From: a virus
DNA length: 36,348 bases
Virus genome (UHGV): UHGV-0446651
Reading direction: 5' to 3' (one strand)
Shown: positions 5,702 to 11,810 of the stretch, in pieces
Layout of the letters: the number at the start of each line of letters is the position of its first letter
Numbering within the stretch: position 1 is the stretch's first letter
Notes under the pieces: generated by a model
The model's input: the letters and a program-made list of their open reading frames with translations, nothing else
Told to the model about the DNA's origin: nothing
Databases searched by the model: none
Program-made: the position numbers and the translations under genes

Positions 5702-6439
5702 ATGAGTATTTGTCGTGGAGTAGCAGGAAACAGAGGAAGAAATCCGGTAGGAATCTTTTTTCACAATGACGCTGGAAGCAAGAACGCCAATGCAGAATTT
5801 TACAGAAATTGGTTACAGACACATCCTCTGGAAAACGGATTTGCGCACTATTATGTAGCGCAGGATGGAATCTTGCAGGCAGAGGATGACTGGAATTGTG
5901 CTTGGCACTGCAGAGACACCAGCGGAAATCTGAATTATCTGAGTATCGAAGTCTGCCAGAGTATGGGCGATCTGAATGTATTTAAAGCGAATGAGGAAAA
6001 AGCATTACAGTTGGCAGCACAGAAGTGCAAGCAGTATGGAATTACACCAAGTGCAAGCACGATCATGCTGCATCAGGAGGTGTTTGCAACCGCTTGTCCG
6101 CACAGATCAGTGGAGATTCACGGCGGCGCAGCGCAGACAAAAGCCTATTTTATTAACCGTATCAAGGAGCTTATAAACGGAAACCAAAGCACAACAACAG
6201 ATCAGGAAGGAGAAGAGACTATGCAGTGTATGTTTACGGTAGAGGGAAAAGGATGTGTTTATTGGATGCATGATGGAGTTGTAACACCTTTGGAGCATCC
6301 AGACGAAATGAAGATTTTACAGGAGATCTATAAAGCGAATTATGGACATGATATGCCAACTTACAAGTGGAGCCCAAACGGACCGTGGTATGTGAGACTG
6401 ATGGCGCCATTGTATCGGGATCCAGTCAAAACTATTTAA
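5702..6439 (+). CDS. Endolysin: N-acetylmuramoyl-L-alanine amidase (Amidase_2/PGRP fold), with a C-terminal domain of unknown, putative wall-binding type.
   Basis: Contains GIFFHNDAGS...AHYYV...SIEV...HQEVFATACPH. Follows the holin and is followed by a terminator hairpin. Confidence 0.8.
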   Translation: MSICRGVAGNRGRNPVGIFFHNDAGSKNANAEFYRNWLQTHPLENGFAHYYVAQDGILQAEDDWNCAWHCRDTSGNLNYLSIEVCQSMGDLNVFKANEEKALQLAAQKCKQYGITPSASTIMLHQEVFATACPHRSVEIHGGAAQTKAYFINRIKELINGNQSTTTDQEGEETMQCMFTVEGKGCVYWMHDGVVTPLEHPDEMKILQEIYKANYGHDMPTYKWSPNGPWYVRLMAPLYRDPVKTI

Positions 6440-6690: not shown

Positions 6691-7797
6691 TCACGCTTCC
6701 TTTTCTGCGTGTTGCATTTCGTGTTGCATATTCTCAAAATGTGAGTTTACTTTATCGATAAATTTCTTGTCTTCTGCATCAATCGTGTTGCGATAGACTT
6801 TTTTTAACACGCGATCAGATTTCCAACCGCCACGCTTCATTATATACTGGTCCGGTATCCCGATAGCGTGCATGATCGATGCGGTATAATGTCTGAGATC
6901 GTGGAATCGGAACTTTGGTATCCCTGCCGCTTGCAGTATACGCCCAAACTTTTTAGAGATATCTTCCGGGTGCATCTTAACAAGTTTTCCTTCTACATCA
7001 TCAAATTTCCGTATAACAAATTCTGGAAAAATAATATATCGGTAACTCTTTTTCGTCTTAGGTGACTTCTCGATCATCCCTTTTCTTCCGCGCACTCTTG
7101 TAATCCGGACTCTAATCGAATTTCCGTTTATATCCTCTTTTTCAAGCCCACACACTTCCCCACGTCTAAGGCTGCCAAAAGCGGCAAGAAGAACAGCTTT
7201 CTCAAGTTCTGTCCCCTTGATGTAGTTTATAAGATTTACAATATCTTGGTCGGAAGGAGTATAATATTCCAGCTCTTCGGATTGCGGGAGTGTAGTTTTG
7301 AACGTCCGGTCCGGAGCGTACATGGACATTACCGGAATGAAGAGACCGTAAGCATTTTTGACAGTTTTTGGAGATAGCCTTGCAGATAGATTATTGACCC
7401 ATATCTGTACATCCTCTTGTGTGATTTTTCGGATGTTAATTTCCTCAATATCCCCAATTTGGTTATTCATGATTGTTTCATAACCTCGCAGCGTTGTTTC
7501 TGATAATACATTTTCTTTCGCTTCTATATACCTTTTAAACGCTTGCTTTACAGTCATATTTTCCGGCCGTTTCTTAGTATCTCTTTCTGAAAGGAATGTA
7601 GCTGCCTGCGCTTCTGCATCCTGCTTTCCTTTTCTTCCTGGCAGATTGCTTGTGAAAGATTCGTAGATTCTCTTTTCCTTCTGTTTCCCTGTCTTCTCGT
7701 CGATAATTGGTTTTCCTTCCCTGTCGTATAGCTTTTCTTTGTGGCTATATACAAGACACCTCCATGTACCGGAGGGCAGCTGCTTTGCTGTTGCCAT
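6691..7797 (-). CDS. int: Tyrosine recombinase / phage integrase.
   Basis: C-terminal catalytic region HDLRHYTASIMHAIGIP...GGW...KVYR (R..H..R..Y type). Start taken at internal ATG 7797 with RBS AAGGAGATGACGAA; the track ORF extends to 7887 without an RBS. attP lies immediately downstream. Confidence 0.85.
   Translation of the reverse strand: MATAKQLPSGTWRCLVYSHKEKLYDREGKPIIDEKTGKQKEKRIYESFTSNLPGRKGKQDAEAQAATFLSERDTKKRPENMTVKQAFKRYIEAKENVLSETTLRGYETIMNNQIGDIEEINIRKITQEDVQIWVNNLSARLSPKTVKNAYGLFIPVMSMYAPDRTFKTTLPQSEELEYYTPSDQDIVNLINYIKGTELEKAVLLAAFGSLRRGEVCGLEKEDINGNSIRVRITRVRGRKGMIEKSPKTKKSYRYIIFPEFVIRKFDDVEGKLVKMHPEDISKKFGRILQAAGIPKFRFHDLRHYTASIMHAIGIPDQYIMKRGGWKSDRVLKKVYRNTIDAEDKKFIDKVNSHFENMQHEMQHAEKEA
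6707..6730. repeat. Integrase arm-type site candidates, right arm: 2 copies (GCGTGTTGCAT, TCGTGTTGCATA). They overlap the last codons of int.
   Basis: Same motif and orientation as the left-arm repeats. The integrase C-terminus ...MQHEMQHAEKEA is encoded across these repeats. Confidence 0.5.
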
Positions 7798-7963
7798 TTC
7801 GTCATCTCCTTTAAATTTAAGTATAAAAATAACAGCCAACGTGCGAACTGATGTTCCACTTGCATGACTGCTCCGAAGATGATACAATATTCTTGGATTT
7901 TAATCGCATATCTTCGGATATGTAGACCGTCTCAGTGTTGGTAGCACTGGGGCGGTTTTTATT

Positions 7964-8494
7964 TTATTGCACGGCGATTTTCTGAGTATCCTTCTTGTTG
8001 TCAAACGATATCATATCGGATGCTTCGATTGTGAGCTCAGTATCACTCTTCAATTTATATACCTGGCATACTTCAACCGTTCCACCCGGCTGCACTTCAT
8101 TTATAGCGTAATTGTTCATAGAGTCGTTCTGTTCTGTCATAATTCCTATTTCACACTCGCCACCGTCCTGAAAGCACTGTACGTTTGCAGCAATTCCAGC
8201 TGTTGCATTTTCATCCGAATTATTTGTAAAGGTATAATAGTAAAGCAGACATTTATTTCCCTCATAATCATTCGCAAATTCATGTCGTACATATTTTACA
8301 TTAAATTTTTCTGCTGTAAAATCTATGATTCCGTCATCGACTGGCTGTGCTTCTTCTTTTAATTCTTCTTTCTGCTCTGTTGTTGCTTCTGTCTTTGCCT
8401 CGGCGTCTTTGGACGGTTCGGCATCCCCACCACATGCTGTAATGGATAATGCCATAGCTCCTACTAATAACATTGCTACAATTTTCTTTTTCAT
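7964..8494 (-). CDS. Secreted lipoprotein (176 aa) between int and the repressor. Candidate superinfection-exclusion (Ltp-like) or moron.
   Basis: Signal peptide MKKKIVAMLLVGAMALSITAC with lipobox ITAC followed by GG. RBS GAGGAA. This position is classic for sie/ltp genes. Confidence 0.7.
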   Translation of the reverse strand: MKKKIVAMLLVGAMALSITACGGDAEPSKDAEAKTEATTEQKEELKEEAQPVDDGIIDFTAEKFNVKYVRHEFANDYEGNKCLLYYYTFTNNSDENATAGIAANVQCFQDGGECEIGIMTEQNDSMNNYAINEVQPGGTVEVCQVYKLKSDTELTIEASDMISFDNKKDTQKIAVQ

Positions 8495-8588
8495 AGTTTC
8501 CTCACTTTCTTATGTACATTAACACCACTTTACTCTATATAAACGCCGAAGCGGTTATATCGTATTATTACCATTATTTACCTGTAGT

Positions 8589-8602
8589 TTCCAGATCTGG
8601 AA
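8589..8602. promoter_or_regulatory. Perfect 14-bp palindrome TTCCAGATCTGGAA (operator candidate) about 20 bp upstream of the small HTH gene, followed by a -10-like TATACT.
   Basis: Read directly. The same CCAGATCTGG core recurs as a 16-bp palindrome GTCCCAGATCTGGGAC at 8823-8838, right after the gene. Confidence 0.5.
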
Positions 8603-8622
8603 TATACTACAATAAAACCACT

Positions 8623-8820
8623 ATGAAAATACTACTCGATAAGATCATGCTTAAGAAAAATCTATCAGTCCGGCAAGTATCCATTGCGACCGGAATATCA
8701 AAATCAACGATCAGCCGCATTGCAAATGGTGAAATATCACCGACAGCCGACACATTGGAATTGCTTGCCAAAGGCTTGAAAGTCCGAATTTCTGACCTTA
8801 TCGACTCTCCATATCAATAG
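8623..8820 (+). CDS. Small XRE-family HTH regulator (65 aa), oriented opposite to the int-lipoprotein-cI genes.
   Basis: MKILLDKIMLKKNLSVRQVSIATGISKSTISRIANGEISPTADTLELLAKGL is a canonical HTH_3. Internal start of track ORF 8512. Flanked by CCAGATCTGG palindromes. Confidence 0.7.
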   Translation: MKILLDKIMLKKNLSVRQVSIATGISKSTISRIANGEISPTADTLELLAKGLKVRISDLIDSPYQ

Positions 8821-8822
8821 GT

Positions 8823-8838
8823 GTCCCAGATCTGGGAC
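8823..8838. promoter_or_regulatory. Perfect 16-bp palindrome GTCCCAGATCTGGGAC immediately downstream of the small HTH gene. Second operator, or a terminator-like hairpin.
   Basis: Read directly. Shares the CCAGATCTGG core with the upstream site. Confidence 0.45.
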
Positions 8839-8891
8839 GATTGTCCATTTTCGCGTAAGTTTCCATGTTTTAGGTTGTTTACTTAATAGAG

Positions 8892-8991
8892 AGGTACATA
8901 AGTACCAAAAAATAGCAGAACAAATGTTCGAACAAAATATTGATTTTTGTTCCCTGAGATAGTATTATATGTTCAGGAATTTCGAACAAGT
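8892..8991. promoter_or_regulatory. Cluster of palindromic or half-palindromic sites: GGTACataaGTACC (8892-8905), TGTTCGAACA (8925-8934), TTCGAACAAG (8980-8988). A -10-like TATTAT lies upstream of the 36-aa ORF.
   Basis: Read directly. Located downstream of the 3' end of the cI-like gene and upstream of the plus-strand mini-ORF. Confidence 0.4.
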
Positions 8992-9017
8992 GTTTTTGCA
9001 GTTAGGAGGGACTCACG

Positions 9018-9128
9018 ATGGACGAATTAAATATCTTGTTATCCAAGCTGAATGGTAACGACTACAGAATCATTAAGCAGCTTGTTTCGATATTACATAG
9101 GTATCTGGAGAAAAGAGGGAGACTTTAG
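9018..9128 (+). CDS. Mini-ORF (36 aa) with strong RBS AGGAGGG. It converges on, and overlaps by 4 nt, the 3' end of the cI-like gene.
   Basis: ATG sits 7 nt after AGGAGGG. The peptide is MDELNILLSKLNGNDYRIIKQLVSILHRYLEKRGRL. Not in the track because it is under 60 aa. Confidence 0.35.
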   Translation: MDELNILLSKLNGNDYRIIKQLVSILHRYLEKRGRL

Positions 9129-9523
9129 TCTTCCCTTTTTTCACTTAACCCAGAACCTACGCTTTTGAAGTACTCTCGTATAACAGTTTTTGATTTTTCA
9201 TCCAGTTCTTGATATTTCTTCATCATTTCTATGATCATATCGTAAAAAGGATTTCCATGTCCGTCATATTCCAGTAAATCTTCTACATAATACCCAATTT
9301 CATCGGATGGTTGCTTGAACATTTCGCCTGTTCCAGATAATAGCCATTCTTCGTTCACTCCATATTCTCTACATATGGCTTTAGCCATTTGATCTGTTAT
9401 TGTACGTTCTTCTTTCTCTATTCTAGAGATCGCAGTCTTAGTCACTCCTAGTGGTTCACCGAATTTCTCGAGAGTTAAATTTAACTGCTTTCTCAGATCA
9501 AATACTCTTTTCCCGTAAGACAT
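9125..9523 (-). CDS. cI-like repressor: N-terminal XRE HTH plus a C-terminal oligomerisation-type domain, with no S24 peptidase domain.
   Basis: KRVFDLRKQLNLTLEKFGEPLGVTKTAISRIEKEER is an HTH_3. It is leftward-transcribed from the divergent promoter region, with RBS AAGGCGGTGA. Confidence 0.75.
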   Translation of the reverse strand: MSYGKRVFDLRKQLNLTLEKFGEPLGVTKTAISRIEKEERTITDQMAKAICREYGVNEEWLLSGTGEMFKQPSDEIGYYVEDLLEYDGHGNPFYDMIIEMMKKYQELDEKSKTVIREYFKSVGSGLSEKRED

Positions 9524-9546
9524 TTATTCACCGCCTTTCTGATTAC

Positions 9547-9575
9547 ATTATATATCAGTAAAAAGTCAAAGTCAA
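9547..9575 (-). promoter_or_regulatory. Leftward (PRM/PL-like) promoter for the cI-like gene: -35 TTGACT (9570-9575), 17-nt spacer, -10 TATAAT (9547-9552), read on the minus strand.
   Basis: Hexamers and 17-nt spacing read on the minus strand, directly upstream of the cI-like start at 9523. Confidence 0.6.
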
Positions 9576-9583
9576 GAAAAAAA

Positions 9584-9627
9584 GTTACCAAAGGCAACAA
9601 AAAAGAGTTGACAAAGTTACCAAAGGT
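9584..9627. promoter_or_regulatory. Operator candidates: two direct copies of AGTTACCAAAGG (about 9583-9594 and 9616-9627). The second lies in the spacer of the rightward promoter.
   Basis: Read directly between the divergent promoters. Confidence 0.55.
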
Positions 9628-9636
9628 CAGTATAAT
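9608..9636 (+). promoter_or_regulatory. Rightward early (PR-like) promoter: perfect TTGACA (9608-9613), 17-nt spacer, TATAAT (9631-9636).
   Basis: Exact sigma-A consensus hexamers with 17-nt spacing, upstream of the first rightward gene (start 9720). Confidence 0.7.
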
Positions 9637-9719
9637 GTAACCATAGACAACAAAACAACACAACAAACCAAAATTAAAAACGCTGTCCTATCGGCATGAC
9701 GGGGAGAAAGAGGTTGAAT

Positions 9720-9881
9720 ATGTTTGTGGTTTATGAAGTGTTTAAATCAGATGGAAAGAAGCTTTTAAGATTTAAAAACGAAGATAAATTTACTTGTGAG
9801 GTATATGTTGATCATCACAAATATGATTATGGTGCGCTATTAAACGGAGCTTCAGAACTTGTCATAGAAAAAATCGAATAA
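9720..9881 (+). CDS. First rightward early gene (53 aa). Sits in the Cro position but has no recognisable HTH.
   Basis: ATG with RBS AGAAAGAGG. The track ORF starts at 9696 without an RBS. Confidence 0.5.
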   Translation: MFVVYEVFKSDGKKLLRFKNEDKFTCEVYVDHHKYDYGALLNGASELVIEKIE

Positions 9882-10623: not shown

Positions 10624-11388
10624 TTGAACGAATTATTTGTAATCAACACGGACGGTAACGAACCAACCGTATCAGCCAGAGATCTTCATAAGGCTCTTGG
10701 AATCAGAAAAAGATTTTCTGAATGGTTCGAAAAGAATTCGCAAGGATTTATTGAGAATGAGGATTTTAATGGTGCGTACCTAAAGGTACATAGCAATCAG
10801 TATGGTGGTGAAAAGGAAGTGCAAGACTACCAAGTCTCAACTGACATGGCAAAGCACATTTGCCTTATGAGCAGAACCGACAAAGGGAGAGAATGCAGAC
10901 AAAGATTGATTGACCTCGAGAAAGCATGGAATACACCAGAACAGGTAATGGCAAGAGCCTTAAAGATGGCAGGCAAGACCATTGACAGTCTGAAAGACAG
11001 ATGCAAATTCCTTGGCGGACAGGTTGTAGAACAACAGAAATTGATCGAGGAAATGACGCCGAAAGCGAATTATGTTGATCATATTCTCGAATCAAAATCG
11101 TTGGTAGCGACTACGCAGATCGCCAAAGACTACGGAATGTCAGCGGTGCGATTCAACCGGATTCTGAATGATATGAAAATTCAGTACAAGGTCAACAAAC
11201 AGTGGGTTCTCTATTCAAAGTATCAGAATTGTGGCTATGTACATAGTAAAACGATTGACATTACGAGGAGCAACGGAGATCCGGATGTAACAATGCAGAC
11301 GCAGTGGACGCAGAAAGGACGGTTATTCCTGTACGAGGAACTTAAGAAAAACGGTATTTATCCAGTAATTGAGCAGAATGCAGCATAG
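10624..11388 (+). CDS. Antirepressor (Ant): N-terminal ORF6N/Bro-N-like domain plus C-terminal KilA-C (ANT) domain.
   Basis: N-terminal [24 protein letters not shown]...[32 protein letters not shown]-terminal [30 protein letters not shown] start with AGGAGG 9 nt upstream. Confidence 0.7.
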
Positions 11389-11397
11389 GAGGTACGC

Positions 11398-11595
11398 ATG
11401 AGCGAAAAAGACAGAAAAGAGATTGCAGAAATGGTTAAAAAAGCGAAGTATCTGGCAGAAAATGATCCACAGGGGTTTATGCTTGCCAAGAATAGCATGG
11501 ATATTCTGAAAGCGAGATCAGATATGGATGCAGTAGAGGAAAAGAATGGAGGATTGATAACGTGCCAAGAACAGCAGTTGGAGAAAACGAAATAA
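11398..11595 (+). CDS. Hypothetical protein (65 aa).
   Basis: RBS AGGAGGTACGC precedes the ATG. Confidence 0.5.
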   Translation: MSEKDRKEIAEMVKKAKYLAENDPQGFMLAKNSMDILKARSDMDAVEEKNGGLITCQEQQLEKTK

Positions 11596-11810
11596 AAAAC
11601 CGGGTTTTGCGTGGCAGTATTGACAATGCAAGAAGACTTAAAGACATGGGAATAGATGACCTGTCCAATCTTACAGGGATACCAGAAAGCACCCTGTATG
11701 CGAAAATACGAGATCCAAACAAATTTAACCTGCGGGAATTAAGGTTGATATGTAAGGCATTAAAGATAACAGAGGAAGAAAAGCGGAGATTAGGAGGATT
11801 GATATTGTGA
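11562..11810 (+). CDS. Small HTH-containing protein (82 aa), putative regulator.
   Basis: GTG start with GGAGG 9 nt upstream. HTH-like MGIDDLSNLTGIPESTLYAKIRD. Confidence 0.45.
   Translation: MPRTAVGENEIKNRVLRGSIDNARRLKDMGIDDLSNLTGIPESTLYAKIRDPNKFNLRELRLICKALKITEEEKRRLGGLIL

What the first reader, a model, noticed from the sequence alone, without database searches (positions are those of the whole stretch)
8580..9130. Opposite-strand mini-module inside the lysogeny operon: small XRE HTH bracketed by perfect CCAGATCTGG palindromes, plus a palindrome-rich promoter and a 36-aa ORF convergent on the repressor gene
int, the lipoprotein gene and the cI-like gene are all leftward. Between the lipoprotein and cI-like genes lies a rightward 65-aa HTH gene flanked by a 14-bp and a 16-bp perfect palindrome sharing CCAGATCTGG. 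The upstream palindrome overlaps a -10-like TATACT, which suggests autoregulation. Next comes a region with GGTACataaGTACC, TGTTCGAACA and TTCGAACAAG sites and a TATTAT box, upstream of a strongly RBS-ed 36-aa ORF. That ORF reads into the 3' end of the cI-like gene, so the transcript would be antisense to the repressor mRNA. The layout is consistent with an auxiliary regulatory, anti-defense-associated (Aca-like) or toxin-antitoxin-like unit. It is not part of the canonical switch.
Basis: partly seen in the sequence, partly recalled or inferred. Interest (0 to 1): 0.6.

Follow-up and report, generated by a model that had tools for sequence, protein, structure and literature searches.

The report
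SOS-gated mini antirepressor beside phage repressor
The 36-codon gene next to this gut-phage repressor is most likely a DNA-damage-switched mini-protein that disables the repressor to wake the prophage, and the small helix-turn-helix gene upstream is an optional add-on regulator; this layout recurs, unannotated, in many Lachnospiraceae prophages.

Summary
The sequence features are real, but the grouping is wrong. The 36-aa ORF (9018-9128) belongs with the convergent 132-aa repressor, not with the 65-aa HTH. It recurs with that repressor in prophages that lack the HTH.

Its promoter (TTGATT-17-TATTAT) is flanked by two Firmicute LexA boxes, AGAACAAATGTTCG and CGAACAAGTGTTT. In 37 non-redundant promoters from several Lachnospiraceae genera, conservation peaks on the GAAC/GTTC half-sites, the -35/-10 and the SD.

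At least 12 families of 31-43-aa ORFs sit there. They are under purifying selection (dN/dS 0.05-0.17) and each converges on a 110-135-aa XRE repressor with no S24 domain. ORF type tracks the repressor's C-terminal helical domain, not its DNA-binding domain.

Best reading: a LexA-controlled small antirepressor, analogous to AimX-AimC of Bacillus arbitrium phages but without AimR/AimP.

The HTH is an optional cassette, apparently on a leaderless mRNA. Only the palindrome after its stop codon is conserved, and its half-sites co-vary with the recognition helix, so it is a probable operator. The upstream palindrome is lineage-specific. A bidirectional terminator limits antisense overlap to about 17 nt. 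Aca and TA readings find no support. Nothing here is experimentally tested.

The parts
8589..8602 (.). Upstream palindrome TTCCAGATCTGGAA. It lies in the -35/spacer region of the HTH gene promoter. It may be a weak secondary operator in this sub-lineage only.
   Evidence: It is an exact palindrome and shares CCAGATCTGG with 8826-8835. It is variable or absent in relatives.
8608..8613 (+). TACAAT, the probable -10 of the HTH65 promoter. It lies 9 nt before the ATG, with no Shine-Dalgarno, which implies a leaderless or near-leaderless mRNA.
   Evidence: A -10-like hexamer lies 3-10 nt (mode 6) before the ATG in 73 of 83 distinct upstream regions. An SD-like motif is present in only 4 of 83.
8623..8820 (+). 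65-aa XRE-family HTH protein (HTH65). It is an optional cassette gene placed immediately upstream of the SOS promoter.
   Evidence: Pfam HTH_3 8.8e-13 and HTH_26 3.5e-12. Presence or absence is independent of the smORF/repressor type. Relatives occur in 77 viral loci and 43 genome loci.
8823..8838 (.). Conserved palindrome GTCCCA-GATC-TGGGAC, 2 nt after the HTH65 stop codon. It is the probable HTH65 operator. A 3' hairpin is the alternative reading.
   Evidence: It holds a fixed position in about 100 loci. The outer GTCC/GGAC is nearly invariant, the centre varies freely, and the inner half-site co-varies with helix-3 residue 33: R pairs with CCCA and D/E with CCG(A/G), a clean partition in 98 distinct combinations. 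There is no U-tract. The RNA hairpin folds at -10.9 kcal/mol with z -1.8. It is the only such site in the window.
8860..8889 (+). Conserved block TTTCCA-18 nt-TAATAG. It may be a third, weak rightward promoter (P_x) whose -35 lies about 22 bp downstream of the operator. This is speculative.
   Evidence: Moderately conserved columns (cgt.AGtTTtc ... tGT.Ta.aTa.ta) appear in an alignment of 25 diverse loci. It was not reported by the consensus promoter scan.
8893..8906 (.). Hairpin GGTAC-ATAA-GTACC just upstream of LexA box 1. It is part of the HTH65 cassette. Its function is unknown: a 5' stem-loop of a P_x transcript or a weak leftward terminator are both possible.
   Evidence: -6.4 kcal/mol, z -6.2. 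Relatives carry GGCAA..TTGCC, GGAAAAATTTTCC, GGGAT..ATCC or GGGGAT..TCCCC at the same place. It is absent from loci that lack the HTH.
8917..8930 (.). LexA (Cheo/SOS) box 1, AGAACAAATGTTCG, 10 bp upstream of the -35.
   Evidence: It is an exact GAAC-N4-GTTC. It forms the highest information peak in 37 non-redundant promoters. It is near-identical to the C. difficile recA operator AGAACAAATGTTTG, which binds LexA (PMC4234289).
8940..8968 (+). P_sos promoter: -35 TTGATT, 17-nt spacer, -10 TATTAT. The predicted start is near 8975.
   Evidence: Found by the promoter scan. TTGA and TAGTAttAT are conserved across genera.
8983..8996 (.). LexA box 2, CGAACAAGTGTTTT, at about +8 to +21 of P_sos.
   Evidence: It matches GAAC-N4-GTTT, the form accepted for Clostridia. 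Across lineages the half-sites are kept while the central N4 varies: GAACATGTGTTT, GAACGTGCGTTC, GAACAACTGTTC, GAACAAATGTTC.
9018..9128 (+). 36-aa smORF MDELNILLSKLNGNDYRIIKQLVSILHRYLEKRGRL, with SD AGGAGGG at 9004-9010. It is the candidate small antirepressor.
   Evidence: dN/dS is 0.05-0.17 in five families. AF2 predicts two helices, 2-9 and 13-33, with pLDDT 85. It is always convergent on the repressor and tracks the repressor C-terminal domain. There is no Pfam, PHROG or PADLOC hit. Public records annotate it as hypothetical.
9117..9141 (.). Bidirectional intrinsic terminator shared by the smORF and the repressor gene: A-run, GGGAGAC-TTTA-GTCTTCC, T6.
   Evidence: Found by the terminator scan. 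Folds at -18.2 kcal/mol on the + strand and -13.8 on the - strand.
9125..9523 (-). 132-aa CI-like repressor: N-terminal XRE HTH (1-63), an NEEWL..GEMF linker, and a three-helix C-terminal domain (72-130). It has no S24 peptidase domain.
   Evidence: Pfam finds HTH_3/HTH_19 only. AF2 gives pLDDT 79. Foldseek hits include SinR/SinI 1b0n and the phi106 repressor-AimX complex 9sf2. The N-terminal domain is swapped among at least 6 types while the C-terminal domain and the smORF stay together.
9581..9655 (.). Three AAAGTTACCAAAGG-type direct repeats overlapping the divergent promoters (rightward TTGACA-17-TATAAT 9608-9636; leftward TTGACT-17-TATAAT 9575-9547). They are the probable operators of the 132-aa repressor.
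   Evidence: Repeat family D1 and the promoter scan. They are unrelated to the CCAGATCTGG or GAAC boxes.

Best explanation
The interval holds two separable things.

(1) A LexA-gated small antirepressor gene.
- In the lysogen, host LexA binds box 1 (8917-8930) and box 2 (8983-8996) and keeps P_sos shut.
- DNA damage removes LexA, and the 36-aa two-helix peptide is made.
- The peptide binds the C-terminal helical (oligomerisation) domain of the convergent 132-aa repressor. That repressor cannot cleave itself.
- Binding takes the repressor off its AAAGTTACCAAAGG operators, so the early lytic promoter fires.
- This works like AimX-AimC of Bacillus arbitrium phages, SinI-SinR, or Tum and the Gifsy antirepressors.

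(2) An optional cassette upstream.
- It comprises the HTH65 gene on a leaderless mRNA, its operator (the palindrome at 8823-8838), a conserved AT-rich block and a small hairpin.
- It adds a second transcriptional input into the same smORF. No intrinsic terminator separates hth65 from the smORF.
- HTH65 bound at its operator either limits (Mnt/Arc-like) or activates (AimR-like or TF-smORF-like) SOS-independent transcription toward the smORF. The sign is not determined.

Shown here: the anatomy, conservation, footprint, purifying selection, domain content and co-variation.
Inferred, not shown: LexA binding, peptide-repressor binding, and HTH65-palindrome binding.
For: 1. The same 36-aa ORF plus the same 132-aa repressor occur in prophages with a serine recombinase and no HTH65.
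2. In R. gnavus phages RG-TP1, phiRg507T2_2 and phiRg519T2 the promoter is about 90% identical. From the start codon onward, however, the smORF, the repressor and (in those phages) the cro-like gene are replaced together.
3. Across 37 promoters less than 90% similar to each other, from Mediterraneibacter, Faecalimonas, Dorea, Blautia, Bariatricus, Muricomes and others, information content peaks at AGAAC/GTTCG, TTGA, the -10, GAAC-N4-GTTc and GGAGG. Flanking sequence is not conserved.
4. The boxes fit the clostridial LexA motif GAACnnnnGTT(T/C). Box 1 nearly equals the C. difficile recA operator, which binds LexA.
5. All cognate repressors are 110-135 aa, carry only an HTH domain and have no Peptidase_S24 domain. 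AF2 shows an HTH plus a three-helix C-terminal domain.
6. smORF identity tracks C-terminal-domain identity (Spearman 0.66) and not N-terminal-domain identity (0.17). The 41 pairs with similar N-terminal but different C-terminal domains have unrelated smORFs. The 61 pairs with different N-terminal but similar C-terminal domains have similar smORFs (median 75% identity).
7. dN/dS is 0.05-0.17, and the peptide is predicted as a two-helix hairpin with pLDDT 85.
8. There is experimental precedent with the same architecture, including a LexA site upstream of the small ORF: AimX (29-80 aa) binds the AimC C-terminal domain (bioRxiv 10.1101/2025.11.23.689978; PDB 9sf2 and 9iaq appear among the fold hits).
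9. RG-TP1, which carries this module with a 114-aa repressor, was obtained by mitomycin C treatment (PMC13435783).
10. HTH65: the operator position is fixed, and the inner half-site partitions perfectly with helix-3 residue 33. In loci where a deletion removed the P_sos core, the smORF can be reached only from upstream.
Against: - No binding or expression data exist for any component.
- The smORF and the repressor C-terminal domain are physically adjacent, so their co-inheritance could reflect linkage alone.
- The smORF shows no significant similarity to AimX, SinI or any PDB, Pfam or PHROG family.
- Similarity of the smORF family to the repressor C-terminal helices is weak (hhalign P 0.0016, probability 16%). 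It is not specific to cognate pairs.
- The host LexA motif was taken from C. difficile and Bacillus, not measured in M. gnavus.
- In this window the first rightward gene after the repressor is not an HTH Cro, unlike AimL.
- The HTH65 operator lies about 110 bp upstream of the P_sos -35. That is too far for simple activation or occlusion, and the postulated P_x promoter is weak.
- The palindrome could equally be an RNA 3' hairpin.
Confidence: 0.58

Rival explanations
1. The smORF is SOS-induced but acts on a target other than the repressor. Candidates include a modulator of LexA or RecA, a cell-division inhibitor, or an excision or replication cofactor. Under this reading, its co-inheritance with the repressor C-terminal domain is due only to physical linkage.
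For: The LexA-box promoter is well supported, but the target is inferred only from co-variation with the immediately adjacent repressor 3' end. Cognate smORF/C-terminal-domain sequence similarity is not significant.
Against: A generic target would not require at least 12 mutually unrecognisable smORF families, each tied to one C-terminal-domain family, while the promoter stays about 90% identical. The mosaic breakpoint falls at the smORF start codon and at the HTH/C-terminal-domain linker, never between the smORF and the C-terminal domain in roughly 130 loci. The repressors lack any other route to SOS inactivation, having no S24 domain and no ImmA-like gene in the module.
Confidence: 0.13
2. 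The rightward transcript acts as RNA. It would lower repressor expression by antisense pairing or by convergent transcriptional interference, and the 36-aa ORF would be incidental.
For: The genes converge with a 4-nt ORF overlap. The same idea was originally proposed for aimX.
Against: A strong bidirectional terminator ends the transcript about 17 nt into the repressor ORF. The ORF has a strong SD and dN/dS of 0.05-0.17 in five families. Its length and two-helix pattern are conserved across at least 12 families. In the analogous AimX system, recoding and stop-codon mutants showed that the protein, not the RNA, is the effector.
Confidence: 0.07
3. HTH65 plus the 36-aa ORF form a self-contained accessory unit of the Aca-like, toxin-antitoxin-like or moron type, with no role in the lysis-lysogeny switch.
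For: The HTH65 cassette is optional and sits in the moron slot between the accessory leftward genes and the immunity region. XRE proteins are common antitoxins and Aca proteins. PADLOC gives generic HTH, capH and C-protein matches.
Against: The smORF occurs without HTH65 in many loci and always with the repressor. There is no acr-like gene upstream in the same operon. The 36-aa product is soluble and amphipathic and matches no defence or toxin model. LexA boxes tie its expression to induction.
Confidence: 0.06
4. HTH65 is unrelated to smORF control. It could be a superinfection-immunity repressor aimed at other phages, or a regulator of the leftward accessory gene. Under this reading, the palindrome after its stop codon is simply a 3' RNA hairpin or terminator.
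For: The operator is too far from P_sos for classical control. The hairpin reading fits an invariant stem with a free loop. The cassette is dispensable in about half of the relatives. In this window, the upstream palindrome overlaps predicted divergent promoters, including one facing the lipoprotein gene.
Against: In about 100 loci across genera, HTH65 is always oriented toward and immediately upstream of a smORF. This holds even where P_sos has been deleted. HTH65 is not tied to any particular leftward gene. The stem sequence (GTCC..GGAC) is conserved, not merely its pairing, and the inner bases partition with a recognition-helix residue. There is no U-tract.
Confidence: 0.16

Closest known systems
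AimX-AimC-AimL 'extended arbitrium' module of Bacillus phages (phi106, phiW23, Wbeta, BMBtp14, Waukesha92; Kabel et al., bioRxiv 10.1101/2025.11.23.689978; PDB 9sf2, 9iaq)
   Same: A very small ORF (29-80 aa there, 31-43 aa here) is transcribed toward the 3' end of a short HTH repressor and ends at or overlaps it. The repressor is 80-140 aa, has no autocleavage domain and carries a helical C-terminal oligomerisation domain. In the phi106 family a LexA site lies just upstream of the small ORF. The small ORFs are highly divergent and co-vary with the repressor. A regulator gene sits immediately upstream in the same orientation.
   Different: There is no AimR (TPR receptor) or AimP peptide here. 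The upstream slot is either empty or holds a 65-aa stand-alone XRE protein with its own palindrome. There are two LexA boxes bracketing a conserved promoter. The host is Lachnospiraceae, not Bacillus. There is no sequence similarity beyond the generic HTH. In this window the gene next to the repressor is not an HTH Cro.
LexA-controlled antirepressors of Gram-negative phages: Tum (186), GfoA/GfhA (Gifsy; PMC3121763), AntC (N15)
   Same: The logic is the same: a non-cleavable repressor is inactivated by a phage-encoded antirepressor whose promoter is repressed by host LexA.
   Different: Those proteins are larger, unrelated in sequence and often encoded far from the repressor. Here the peptide is 36 aa and shares a terminator with its target gene. 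The LexA motif is the Firmicute GAAC-N4-GTTC.
SinI-SinR of Bacillus subtilis (PDB 1b0n)
   Same: An XRE HTH repressor with a C-terminal helical oligomerisation hook is antagonised by a small helical protein. 1b0n is among the fold hits for the window repressor. The smORF profile aligns, weakly, to helix 7-turn-helix 8 of the repressor C-terminal domain.
   Different: SinI-SinR is a chromosomal biofilm switch, not a phage switch, and is not LexA controlled. The homology is not established (hhalign probability 16%).
TF-smORF modules of Vibrio and Aeromonas linear plasmid-like phages (Silpe et al. 2023, PMC10432266)
   Same: A small XRE/C-protein-like transcription factor is encoded next to an unannotated smORF that inactivates the phage cI. 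Specificity operates at two levels, promoter and repressor.
   Different: There the TF activates a divergently transcribed smORF, the route is SOS-independent and cI is also SOS-sensitive. Here the genes are in tandem, the smORF promoter carries LexA boxes, the repressor has no cleavage domain and the TF cassette is dispensable.
P22 immI region (Mnt, Arc, Ant)
   Same: Small dedicated DNA-binding proteins are encoded beside an antirepressor gene and control its transcription. The first gene of the unit may limit expression of the downstream antirepressor.
   Different: Mnt and Arc have the ribbon-helix-helix fold, Ant is 300 aa, and there is no LexA control.

Membership tests
AimX-AimC-AimL extended arbitrium module | aimR (TPR receptor) and aimP (signal peptide) lie immediately upstream of the small ORF | tested here: not met
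   Upstream genes are the 65-aa HTH, the DUF5067 lipoprotein and the integrase. The same holds in related loci.
AimX-AimC-AimL extended arbitrium module | A small ORF (29-80 aa) ends at or overlaps the 3' end of the oppositely oriented repressor gene | tested here: met
   The 36-aa ORF overlaps the repressor ORF by 4 nt. The gap is -4 to +35 nt in about 130 loci.
AimX-AimC-AimL extended arbitrium module | The repressor is 80-140 aa, with a single HTH, no autocleavage domain and a C-terminal helical oligomerisation domain | tested here: met
   Pfam finds HTH only in 10 repressor types. AF2 shows HTH 1-63 plus helices 72-84, 92-106 and 109-130. The oligomeric state itself was not testable.
AimX-AimC-AimL extended arbitrium module | A cro-like small HTH gene (AimL) is divergent from the repressor | tested here: not met
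   In the window and in L001, the first rightward ORFs have no HTH. A 67-aa HTH is present in the type B and D relatives.
AimX-AimC-AimL extended arbitrium module | Sequence or fold homology of the small ORF and the repressor C-terminal domain to AimX/AimC | tested here: not met
   Profiles of the smORFs and the C-terminal domains find no AimX/AimC chains in the PDB. 9sf2 and 9iaq are matched only weakly overall (TM about 0.44-0.49), and the one sequence-level match to 9sf2 covers only the HTH (residues 4-68).
AimX-AimC-AimL extended arbitrium module | The small protein binds the repressor and blocks its oligomerisation and DNA binding | not testable with these tools
The only support is co-variation.
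LexA-controlled phage antirepressor (Tum/Gifsy/AntC logic) | A host LexA operator lies at the antirepressor promoter | tested here: met
   By motif and phylogenetic footprint only: two GAAC-N4-GTT(C/T) boxes bracket P_sos and are conserved in 37 non-redundant promoters. The motif is taken from PMC4234289. Binding itself was not tested.
LexA-controlled phage antirepressor (Tum/Gifsy/AntC logic) | The cognate repressor is not RecA-cleavable | tested here: met
   No Peptidase_S24 domain in any of the 10 repressor types.
TF-smORF module (Silpe et al. 2023) | The TF activates a divergently transcribed smORF, independently of SOS | tested here: not met
   hth65 and the smORF are in tandem on the same strand, and the smORF promoter carries LexA boxes. 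Whether HTH65 activates or represses was not testable.
SinI/SinR-type mimicry | The antagonist is homologous to the repressor's oligomerisation helices | tested here: inconclusive
   hhalign of the smORF profile against the C-terminal-domain profile gives P 0.0016 and probability 16%, aligned to helix 7-turn-helix 8. Some non-cognate pairs reach z 4.5-6.4. Cognate pairs are not special.
Aca (anti-CRISPR-associated) regulator | The HTH gene lies downstream of an acr gene in one operon and represses the acr promoter | tested here: not met
   There is no ORF upstream of hth65 on the + strand. The nearest upstream gene is the divergent lipoprotein gene. The only Aca match is Aca11 at E 0.36.
Type II toxin-antitoxin with XRE antitoxin | An obligate two-gene operon with a toxin partner | tested here: not met
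   The smORF occurs without HTH65 in many loci. There is no toxin or defence model hit for the 36-aa product. The two genes have separate promoters.

The most novel reading that the evidence does not exclude
Lachnospiraceae temperate phages may share a modular induction circuit built from three swappable parts.

1. LexA-box promoter cassettes. These sit upstream of the antirepressor smORF and also upstream of the integrase gene, and they double as recombination joints.
2. A 'smORF plus repressor C-terminal domain' unit. Here the 31-43-aa peptide would be a free-standing mimic of the repressor's own dimerisation hairpin. It can be re-paired with many different DNA-binding domains.
3. An optional ligand-free XRE factor (HTH65) with its own operator, promoter and 5' hairpin. 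It occupies the position that AimR-AimP holds in Bacillus phages and would give a second input into the same antirepressor, either AND-gated with LexA or SOS-independent.

In polylysogens such as Blautia producta DSM 2950, which carries three copies with three smORF/C-terminal-domain types, this would allow orthogonal induction of co-resident prophages.
Probability: 0.25. Interest if true: 0.75.

Novelty: new variant of a known kind. Interest (0 to 1): 0.6.

Why it matters
How prophages of abundant gut Lachnospiraceae are induced is essentially undescribed. This includes the IBD-associated R. gnavus. The two R. gnavus phage papers examined do not mention LexA or the SOS response, and the searches found nothing in them about an antirepressor.

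If the reading is right, three things follow:
- A 36-codon gene, rarely annotated and then only as 'hypothetical' (its exact sequence was called on about 7 contigs against 261 for its repressor), is the switch that links DNA damage to induction.
- The logic discovered in 2025 for Bacillus arbitrium phages extends, without the peptide-signalling part, to another bacterial class.
- The dozen or more orthogonal peptide/repressor-domain pairs would be ready-made tools for inducing single prophages selectively in gut bacteria.

It is also a concrete case where gene callers and domain databases miss the key regulator.

Tried and rejected
No multimer prediction was possible.
- **smORF as a paralogue of its own repressor's C-terminal domain.** Cognate local alignments are not better than shuffled or non-cognate ones. 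I kept only a weak family-level resemblance.
- **Sequence membership in AimX/AimC or SinI/SinR.** Rejected: there are no PDB profile hits.
- **A known RNA in 8400-9750.** Rfam returned only sub-threshold chance hits.
- **Further HTH65 sites in the window.** None was found at up to 3 mismatches. An inverted repeat TTCCCTGA..TCAGGAA around the P_sos -10 resembles the half-site, but it is not conserved in the clade with the GTCCGAG operator, so I dropped it.
- **The palindrome as an intrinsic terminator.** It has no U-tract and only a modest z-score.
- **The upstream palindrome as a conserved autoregulatory operator.** Rejected on comparative grounds.
- **The host's own lexA/recA operators.** These could not be retrieved. 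The single genome scan went on HTH65 distribution, and no Lachnospiraceae LexA sequence was available to me, so the motif rests on C. difficile and Bacillus literature.
- **Promoter P_x.** It is suggested only by moderately conserved blocks and did not pass the consensus scan.


Full report
**1. What is in the sequence**

The window looks like a Ruminococcus (Mediterraneibacter) gnavus-type temperate siphophage. Its nearest records are phages RG-TP1 and the phiRg series.

The lysogeny block is laid out as follows:
- int, 6691-7797(-)
- DUF5067 lipoprotein, 7964-8494(-)
- a 65-aa XRE HTH gene, 8623-8820(+)
- a 36-aa ORF, 9018-9128(+)
- a 132-aa XRE repressor, 9125-9523(-)
- a divergent promoter region with three AAAGTTACCAAAGG repeats, 9581-9655

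CCAGATCTGG occurs exactly twice in 36 kb, against 0.01 expected.
- TATACT abuts the upstream palindrome rather than overlapping it.
- The HTH gene has no Shine-Dalgarno.
- The 36-aa ORF overlaps the repressor ORF by only 4 nt and is followed at once by a bidirectional terminator, 9117-9141.

**2. The 36-aa ORF travels with the repressor, not with the HTH**

An exact-sequence look-up found the same 36-aa product on contigs where it again converges on the same 132-aa repressor. On those contigs the integration module is a serine recombinase plus a T5orf172 protein, and the 65-aa HTH is absent.

In RG-TP1, phiRg507T2_2 and phiRg519T2 the roughly 100 bp upstream of the small ORF are about 90% identical to the window. 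From the start codon onward, the small ORF, the convergent repressor and the cro-like gene are all different. Similarity resumes at a shared Rha-like gene.

Across 35 loci sharing the promoter there are four cassettes, with small ORFs of 32-36 aa paired with repressors of 132, 114, about 110 and 123 aa. The correspondence is strictly one-to-one. The HTH gene is present in about half of the loci and combines with all four cassettes. It is a roughly 310-bp optional insertion.

**3. The promoter carries LexA boxes**

- AGAACAAATGTTCG, 8917-8930
- CGAACAAGTGTTT, 8983-8995

These bracket TTGATT-17-TATTAT. They fit the Bacillus/Clostridium LexA operator GAAC-N4-GTT(C/T). Box 1 is nearly the C. difficile recA operator AGAACAAATGTTTG, which binds LexA in SPR assays (PMC4234289).

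The comparative test is the stronger evidence. Repressor relatives at 50-57% identity have a diverged promoter that keeps both boxes, and these are even closer to consensus (CGAACGAACGTTCG ... CGAACAAATGTTCG).

I aligned 37 promoters that are less than 90% similar to each other, drawn from viral contigs and from genomes of Mediterraneibacter, Faecalimonas, Dorea, Blautia, Bariatricus, Muricomes and others. Information content peaks on AGAAC/GTTCG, TTGA, the -10, GAAC-N4-GTTc, GGAGG and the start codon. The N4 of box 2 and the flanks vary.

LexA binding itself is inferred. RG-TP1, which has this module with a 114-aa repressor, was recovered by mitomycin C treatment (PMC13435783).

**4. The small ORF is a real gene, and its partner is the repressor's C-terminal domain**

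- dN/dS is 0.05-0.17 in five families.
- At least 12 families of 31-43 aa share a helix-acidic turn-helix pattern.
- AF2 predicts helices 2-9 and 13-33 with pLDDT 85.

All cognate repressors are 110-135 aa. They have an N-terminal HTH_3/HTH_19 domain, an NEEWLRTGEGEMF-type linker and about 60 C-terminal residues with no Pfam match and no Peptidase_S24 domain. AF2 of the window repressor gives an HTH (1-63) plus three helices (72-130).

Within the family of the window's small ORF, at least six different DNA-binding domains are joined to one conserved C-terminal domain. Over 903 pairs of loci:
- Small-ORF identity correlates with C-terminal-domain identity (rho 0.66) but hardly with N-terminal-domain identity (rho 0.17).
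- Pairs with similar N-terminal but different C-terminal domains have unrelated small ORFs (n = 41).
- Pairs with different N-terminal but similar C-terminal domains have similar small ORFs (median 75% identity, n = 61).

One caveat applies. The small ORF and the C-terminal-domain-coding end are physically adjacent, so linkage contributes to this pattern. Against pure linkage, breakpoints are seen at the small ORF's start codon and at the HTH/C-terminal-domain linker, but never between the two partners.

**5. Mechanism proposed**

LexA holds P_sos shut. DNA damage releases it. The peptide then binds the repressor's C-terminal oligomerisation domain and removes the repressor from its operators.

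This is the mechanism shown experimentally for AimX-AimC in Bacillus arbitrium phages. The shared features are:
- a 29-80-aa ORF overlapping the 3' end of an 80-140-aa HTH repressor that has no cleavage domain
- a LexA site upstream of the ORF in the phi106 family
- peptide binding to the C-terminal domain, which blocks dimerisation
- no role for the antisense RNA

It is also reminiscent of SinI-SinR. Foldseek of the window repressor returns 1b0n (SinR/SinI), 9sf2 (phi106 repressor-AimX) and 9iaq (AimC) among its hits, though overall scores are weak (TM about 0.44-0.49) and the only sequence-level match to 9sf2 covers just the HTH (residues 4-68).

There is no sequence membership. Profiles of the small ORFs and the C-terminal domains find neither AimX/AimC nor SinI/SinR. 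A profile-profile comparison places the small ORF on helix 7-turn-helix 8 of the C-terminal domain at only P 0.0016 and probability 16%. Cognate pairs are not more alike than non-cognate ones.

**6. The HTH cassette**

HTH65 relatives (57-98% identity) were found in 77 viral and 43 genomic loci. In the great majority, the gene is followed in a fixed order:
- 2-5 nt after the stop, a palindrome
- about 100 nt later, box 1
- about 165 nt later, box 2
- about 200 nt later, a small ORF converging on an XRE repressor

The palindrome keeps GTCC...GGAC and has a free centre. Its inner bases partition perfectly with residue 33 of the recognition helix. (S/N/Q)RI goes with GTCCCA..TGGGAC, and (S/A/E)(D/E)I goes with GTCCG(A/G)..(C/T)CGGAC. 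This holds in 98 distinct combinations, though they represent few independent events. It has no U-tract. I read it as the HTH65 operator, at roughly two-to-one odds over a plain RNA hairpin.

The upstream palindrome is perfect only in the window's sub-lineage. Elsewhere it degenerates or is absent. Bracketing and autoregulation are therefore not conserved features.

No lineage has an SD before the gene. A -10-like hexamer lies 3-10 nt (mode 6) before the ATG in 73 of 83 distinct upstream regions, which indicates a leaderless mRNA.

No intrinsic terminator separates hth65 from the small ORF. In some lineages the P_sos core is deleted or missing, so the small ORF can be reached only from upstream.

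The cassette also carries a moderately conserved block (TTTCCA-18-TAATAG here) and a small hairpin with compensatory changes just before box 1. These may form a third promoter with the operator near -65.

Whether HTH65 represses (Mnt/Arc-like roadblock) or activates (AimR-like or TF-smORF-like; PMC10432266) cannot be decided from sequence.

**7. Rivals and verdict**

- RNA-level antisense action is unlikely, given the terminator, the purifying selection and the AimX precedent.
- A different target for the SOS-induced peptide remains possible, because the co-variation is confounded by adjacency.
- Aca-like and TA-like readings fail their defining features.

The finding is best filed as a new variant of a known kind: a LexA-controlled small antirepressor with an optional XRE input. 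It is widespread and unannotated in gut Lachnospiraceae prophages. Public records call the peptide hypothetical, and its exact sequence was called on about 7 contigs against 261 for its repressor. All functional statements are inferences that the experiments listed would test directly.

Noticed in passing
window 7820-7856 (- strand); L001 4104-4118: A second LexA-like box (GGAACATCAGTTCGCAC) overlaps the -35 (TTCGCA-16-TATACT) of the integrase promoter. About 95 bp of this promoter cassette is identical, through the -10, upstream of the tyrosine integrase here and of a serine recombinase in L001, L002 and L020. It diverges just after the -10. This suggests SOS-controlled int expression and shows the same 'conserved promoter as mosaic joint' pattern.
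   Followed up: partly
window 9581-9655: Three direct repeats (AAAGTTACCAAAGGCAAC, AAAGTTACCAAAGGTCAG, AATGTAACCATAGACAAC) overlap near-consensus divergent promoters (TTGACA-17-TATAAT rightward, TTGACT-17-TATAAT leftward). They are probably the operators of the 132-aa repressor. Direct rather than inverted repeats are unusual for an XRE dimer.
   Followed up: no
window 9696-9881; L001 6705-6908: The first rightward gene after the repressor is not an HTH Cro. Behind an identical promoter and SD, the window has a 61-aa (or 53-aa) non-HTH ORF and L001 has an unrelated 67-aa non-HTH ORF. It is unclear which gene, if any, plays the Cro role. An 82-aa HTH_26 protein lies at 11562-11810.
   Followed up: partly
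window 8520-8562: A block (TTAACACCACTTTACTCTATATAAACGCCGAAGCGGTTATATC) is conserved upstream of whatever leftward accessory gene is present: the DUF5067 lipoprotein here, T5orf172 in L001, and a 343-aa protein in RG-TP1. It is probably a shared leftward promoter/leader and another recombination joint.
   Followed up: no
window 8566-8587: A tandem TTACC(A/T)NTA motif (ATTACCATTA, TTTACCTGTA) with about 10-bp spacing lies 23-24 nt upstream of the hth65 -10. It is conserved across HTH65 lineages regardless of repressor type or HTH65 recognition helix. It is too far upstream for a normal -35. Its function is unknown.
   Followed up: no
L048, L050-L052, L055, L056, L061, L063 (region between the HTH stop and the smORF): A deletion fuses box 1 and box 2 into AAACAAATGTTCAC and removes the -35/-10 of P_sos. 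The smORF, its SD and the repressor stay intact. These prophages may have lost SOS inducibility, or may rely on transcription from the HTH cassette.
   Followed up: partly
L166, L167, L172 (Blautia producta DSM 2950, NZ_CP039126.1): One genome carries three copies of the HTH-palindrome-LexA box-smORF-repressor module. Each has a different smORF and repressor C-terminal domain. This is what orthogonal antirepressors in a polylysogen would look like.
   Followed up: no
L180, L186, L193 (Enterocloster/Clostridium clade): Distant HTH65 relatives (recognition helix HEIRKG) are followed by a different palindrome (GCTCGGA-N2-TCCGAGC), a TATACT -10 about 30 nt later and a 51-60-aa acidic ORF, with no LexA boxes. 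This may be an activator-dependent version of the same idea.
   Followed up: no
window 7924-7958 (+ strand): A 16-bp-stem intrinsic terminator with a T-run on the + strand sits between the leftward lipoprotein and int genes. It probably stops rightward late/lysis transcription (amidase at 5702-6439) from running antisense through the lysogeny genes.
   Followed up: no
window 10624-11388: A classical large antirepressor (AntA plus KilAC/ANT domains, 254 aa) is also encoded, in the early rightward operon. It is distinct from the 36-aa candidate. Its relation to the switch is unknown.
   Followed up: no
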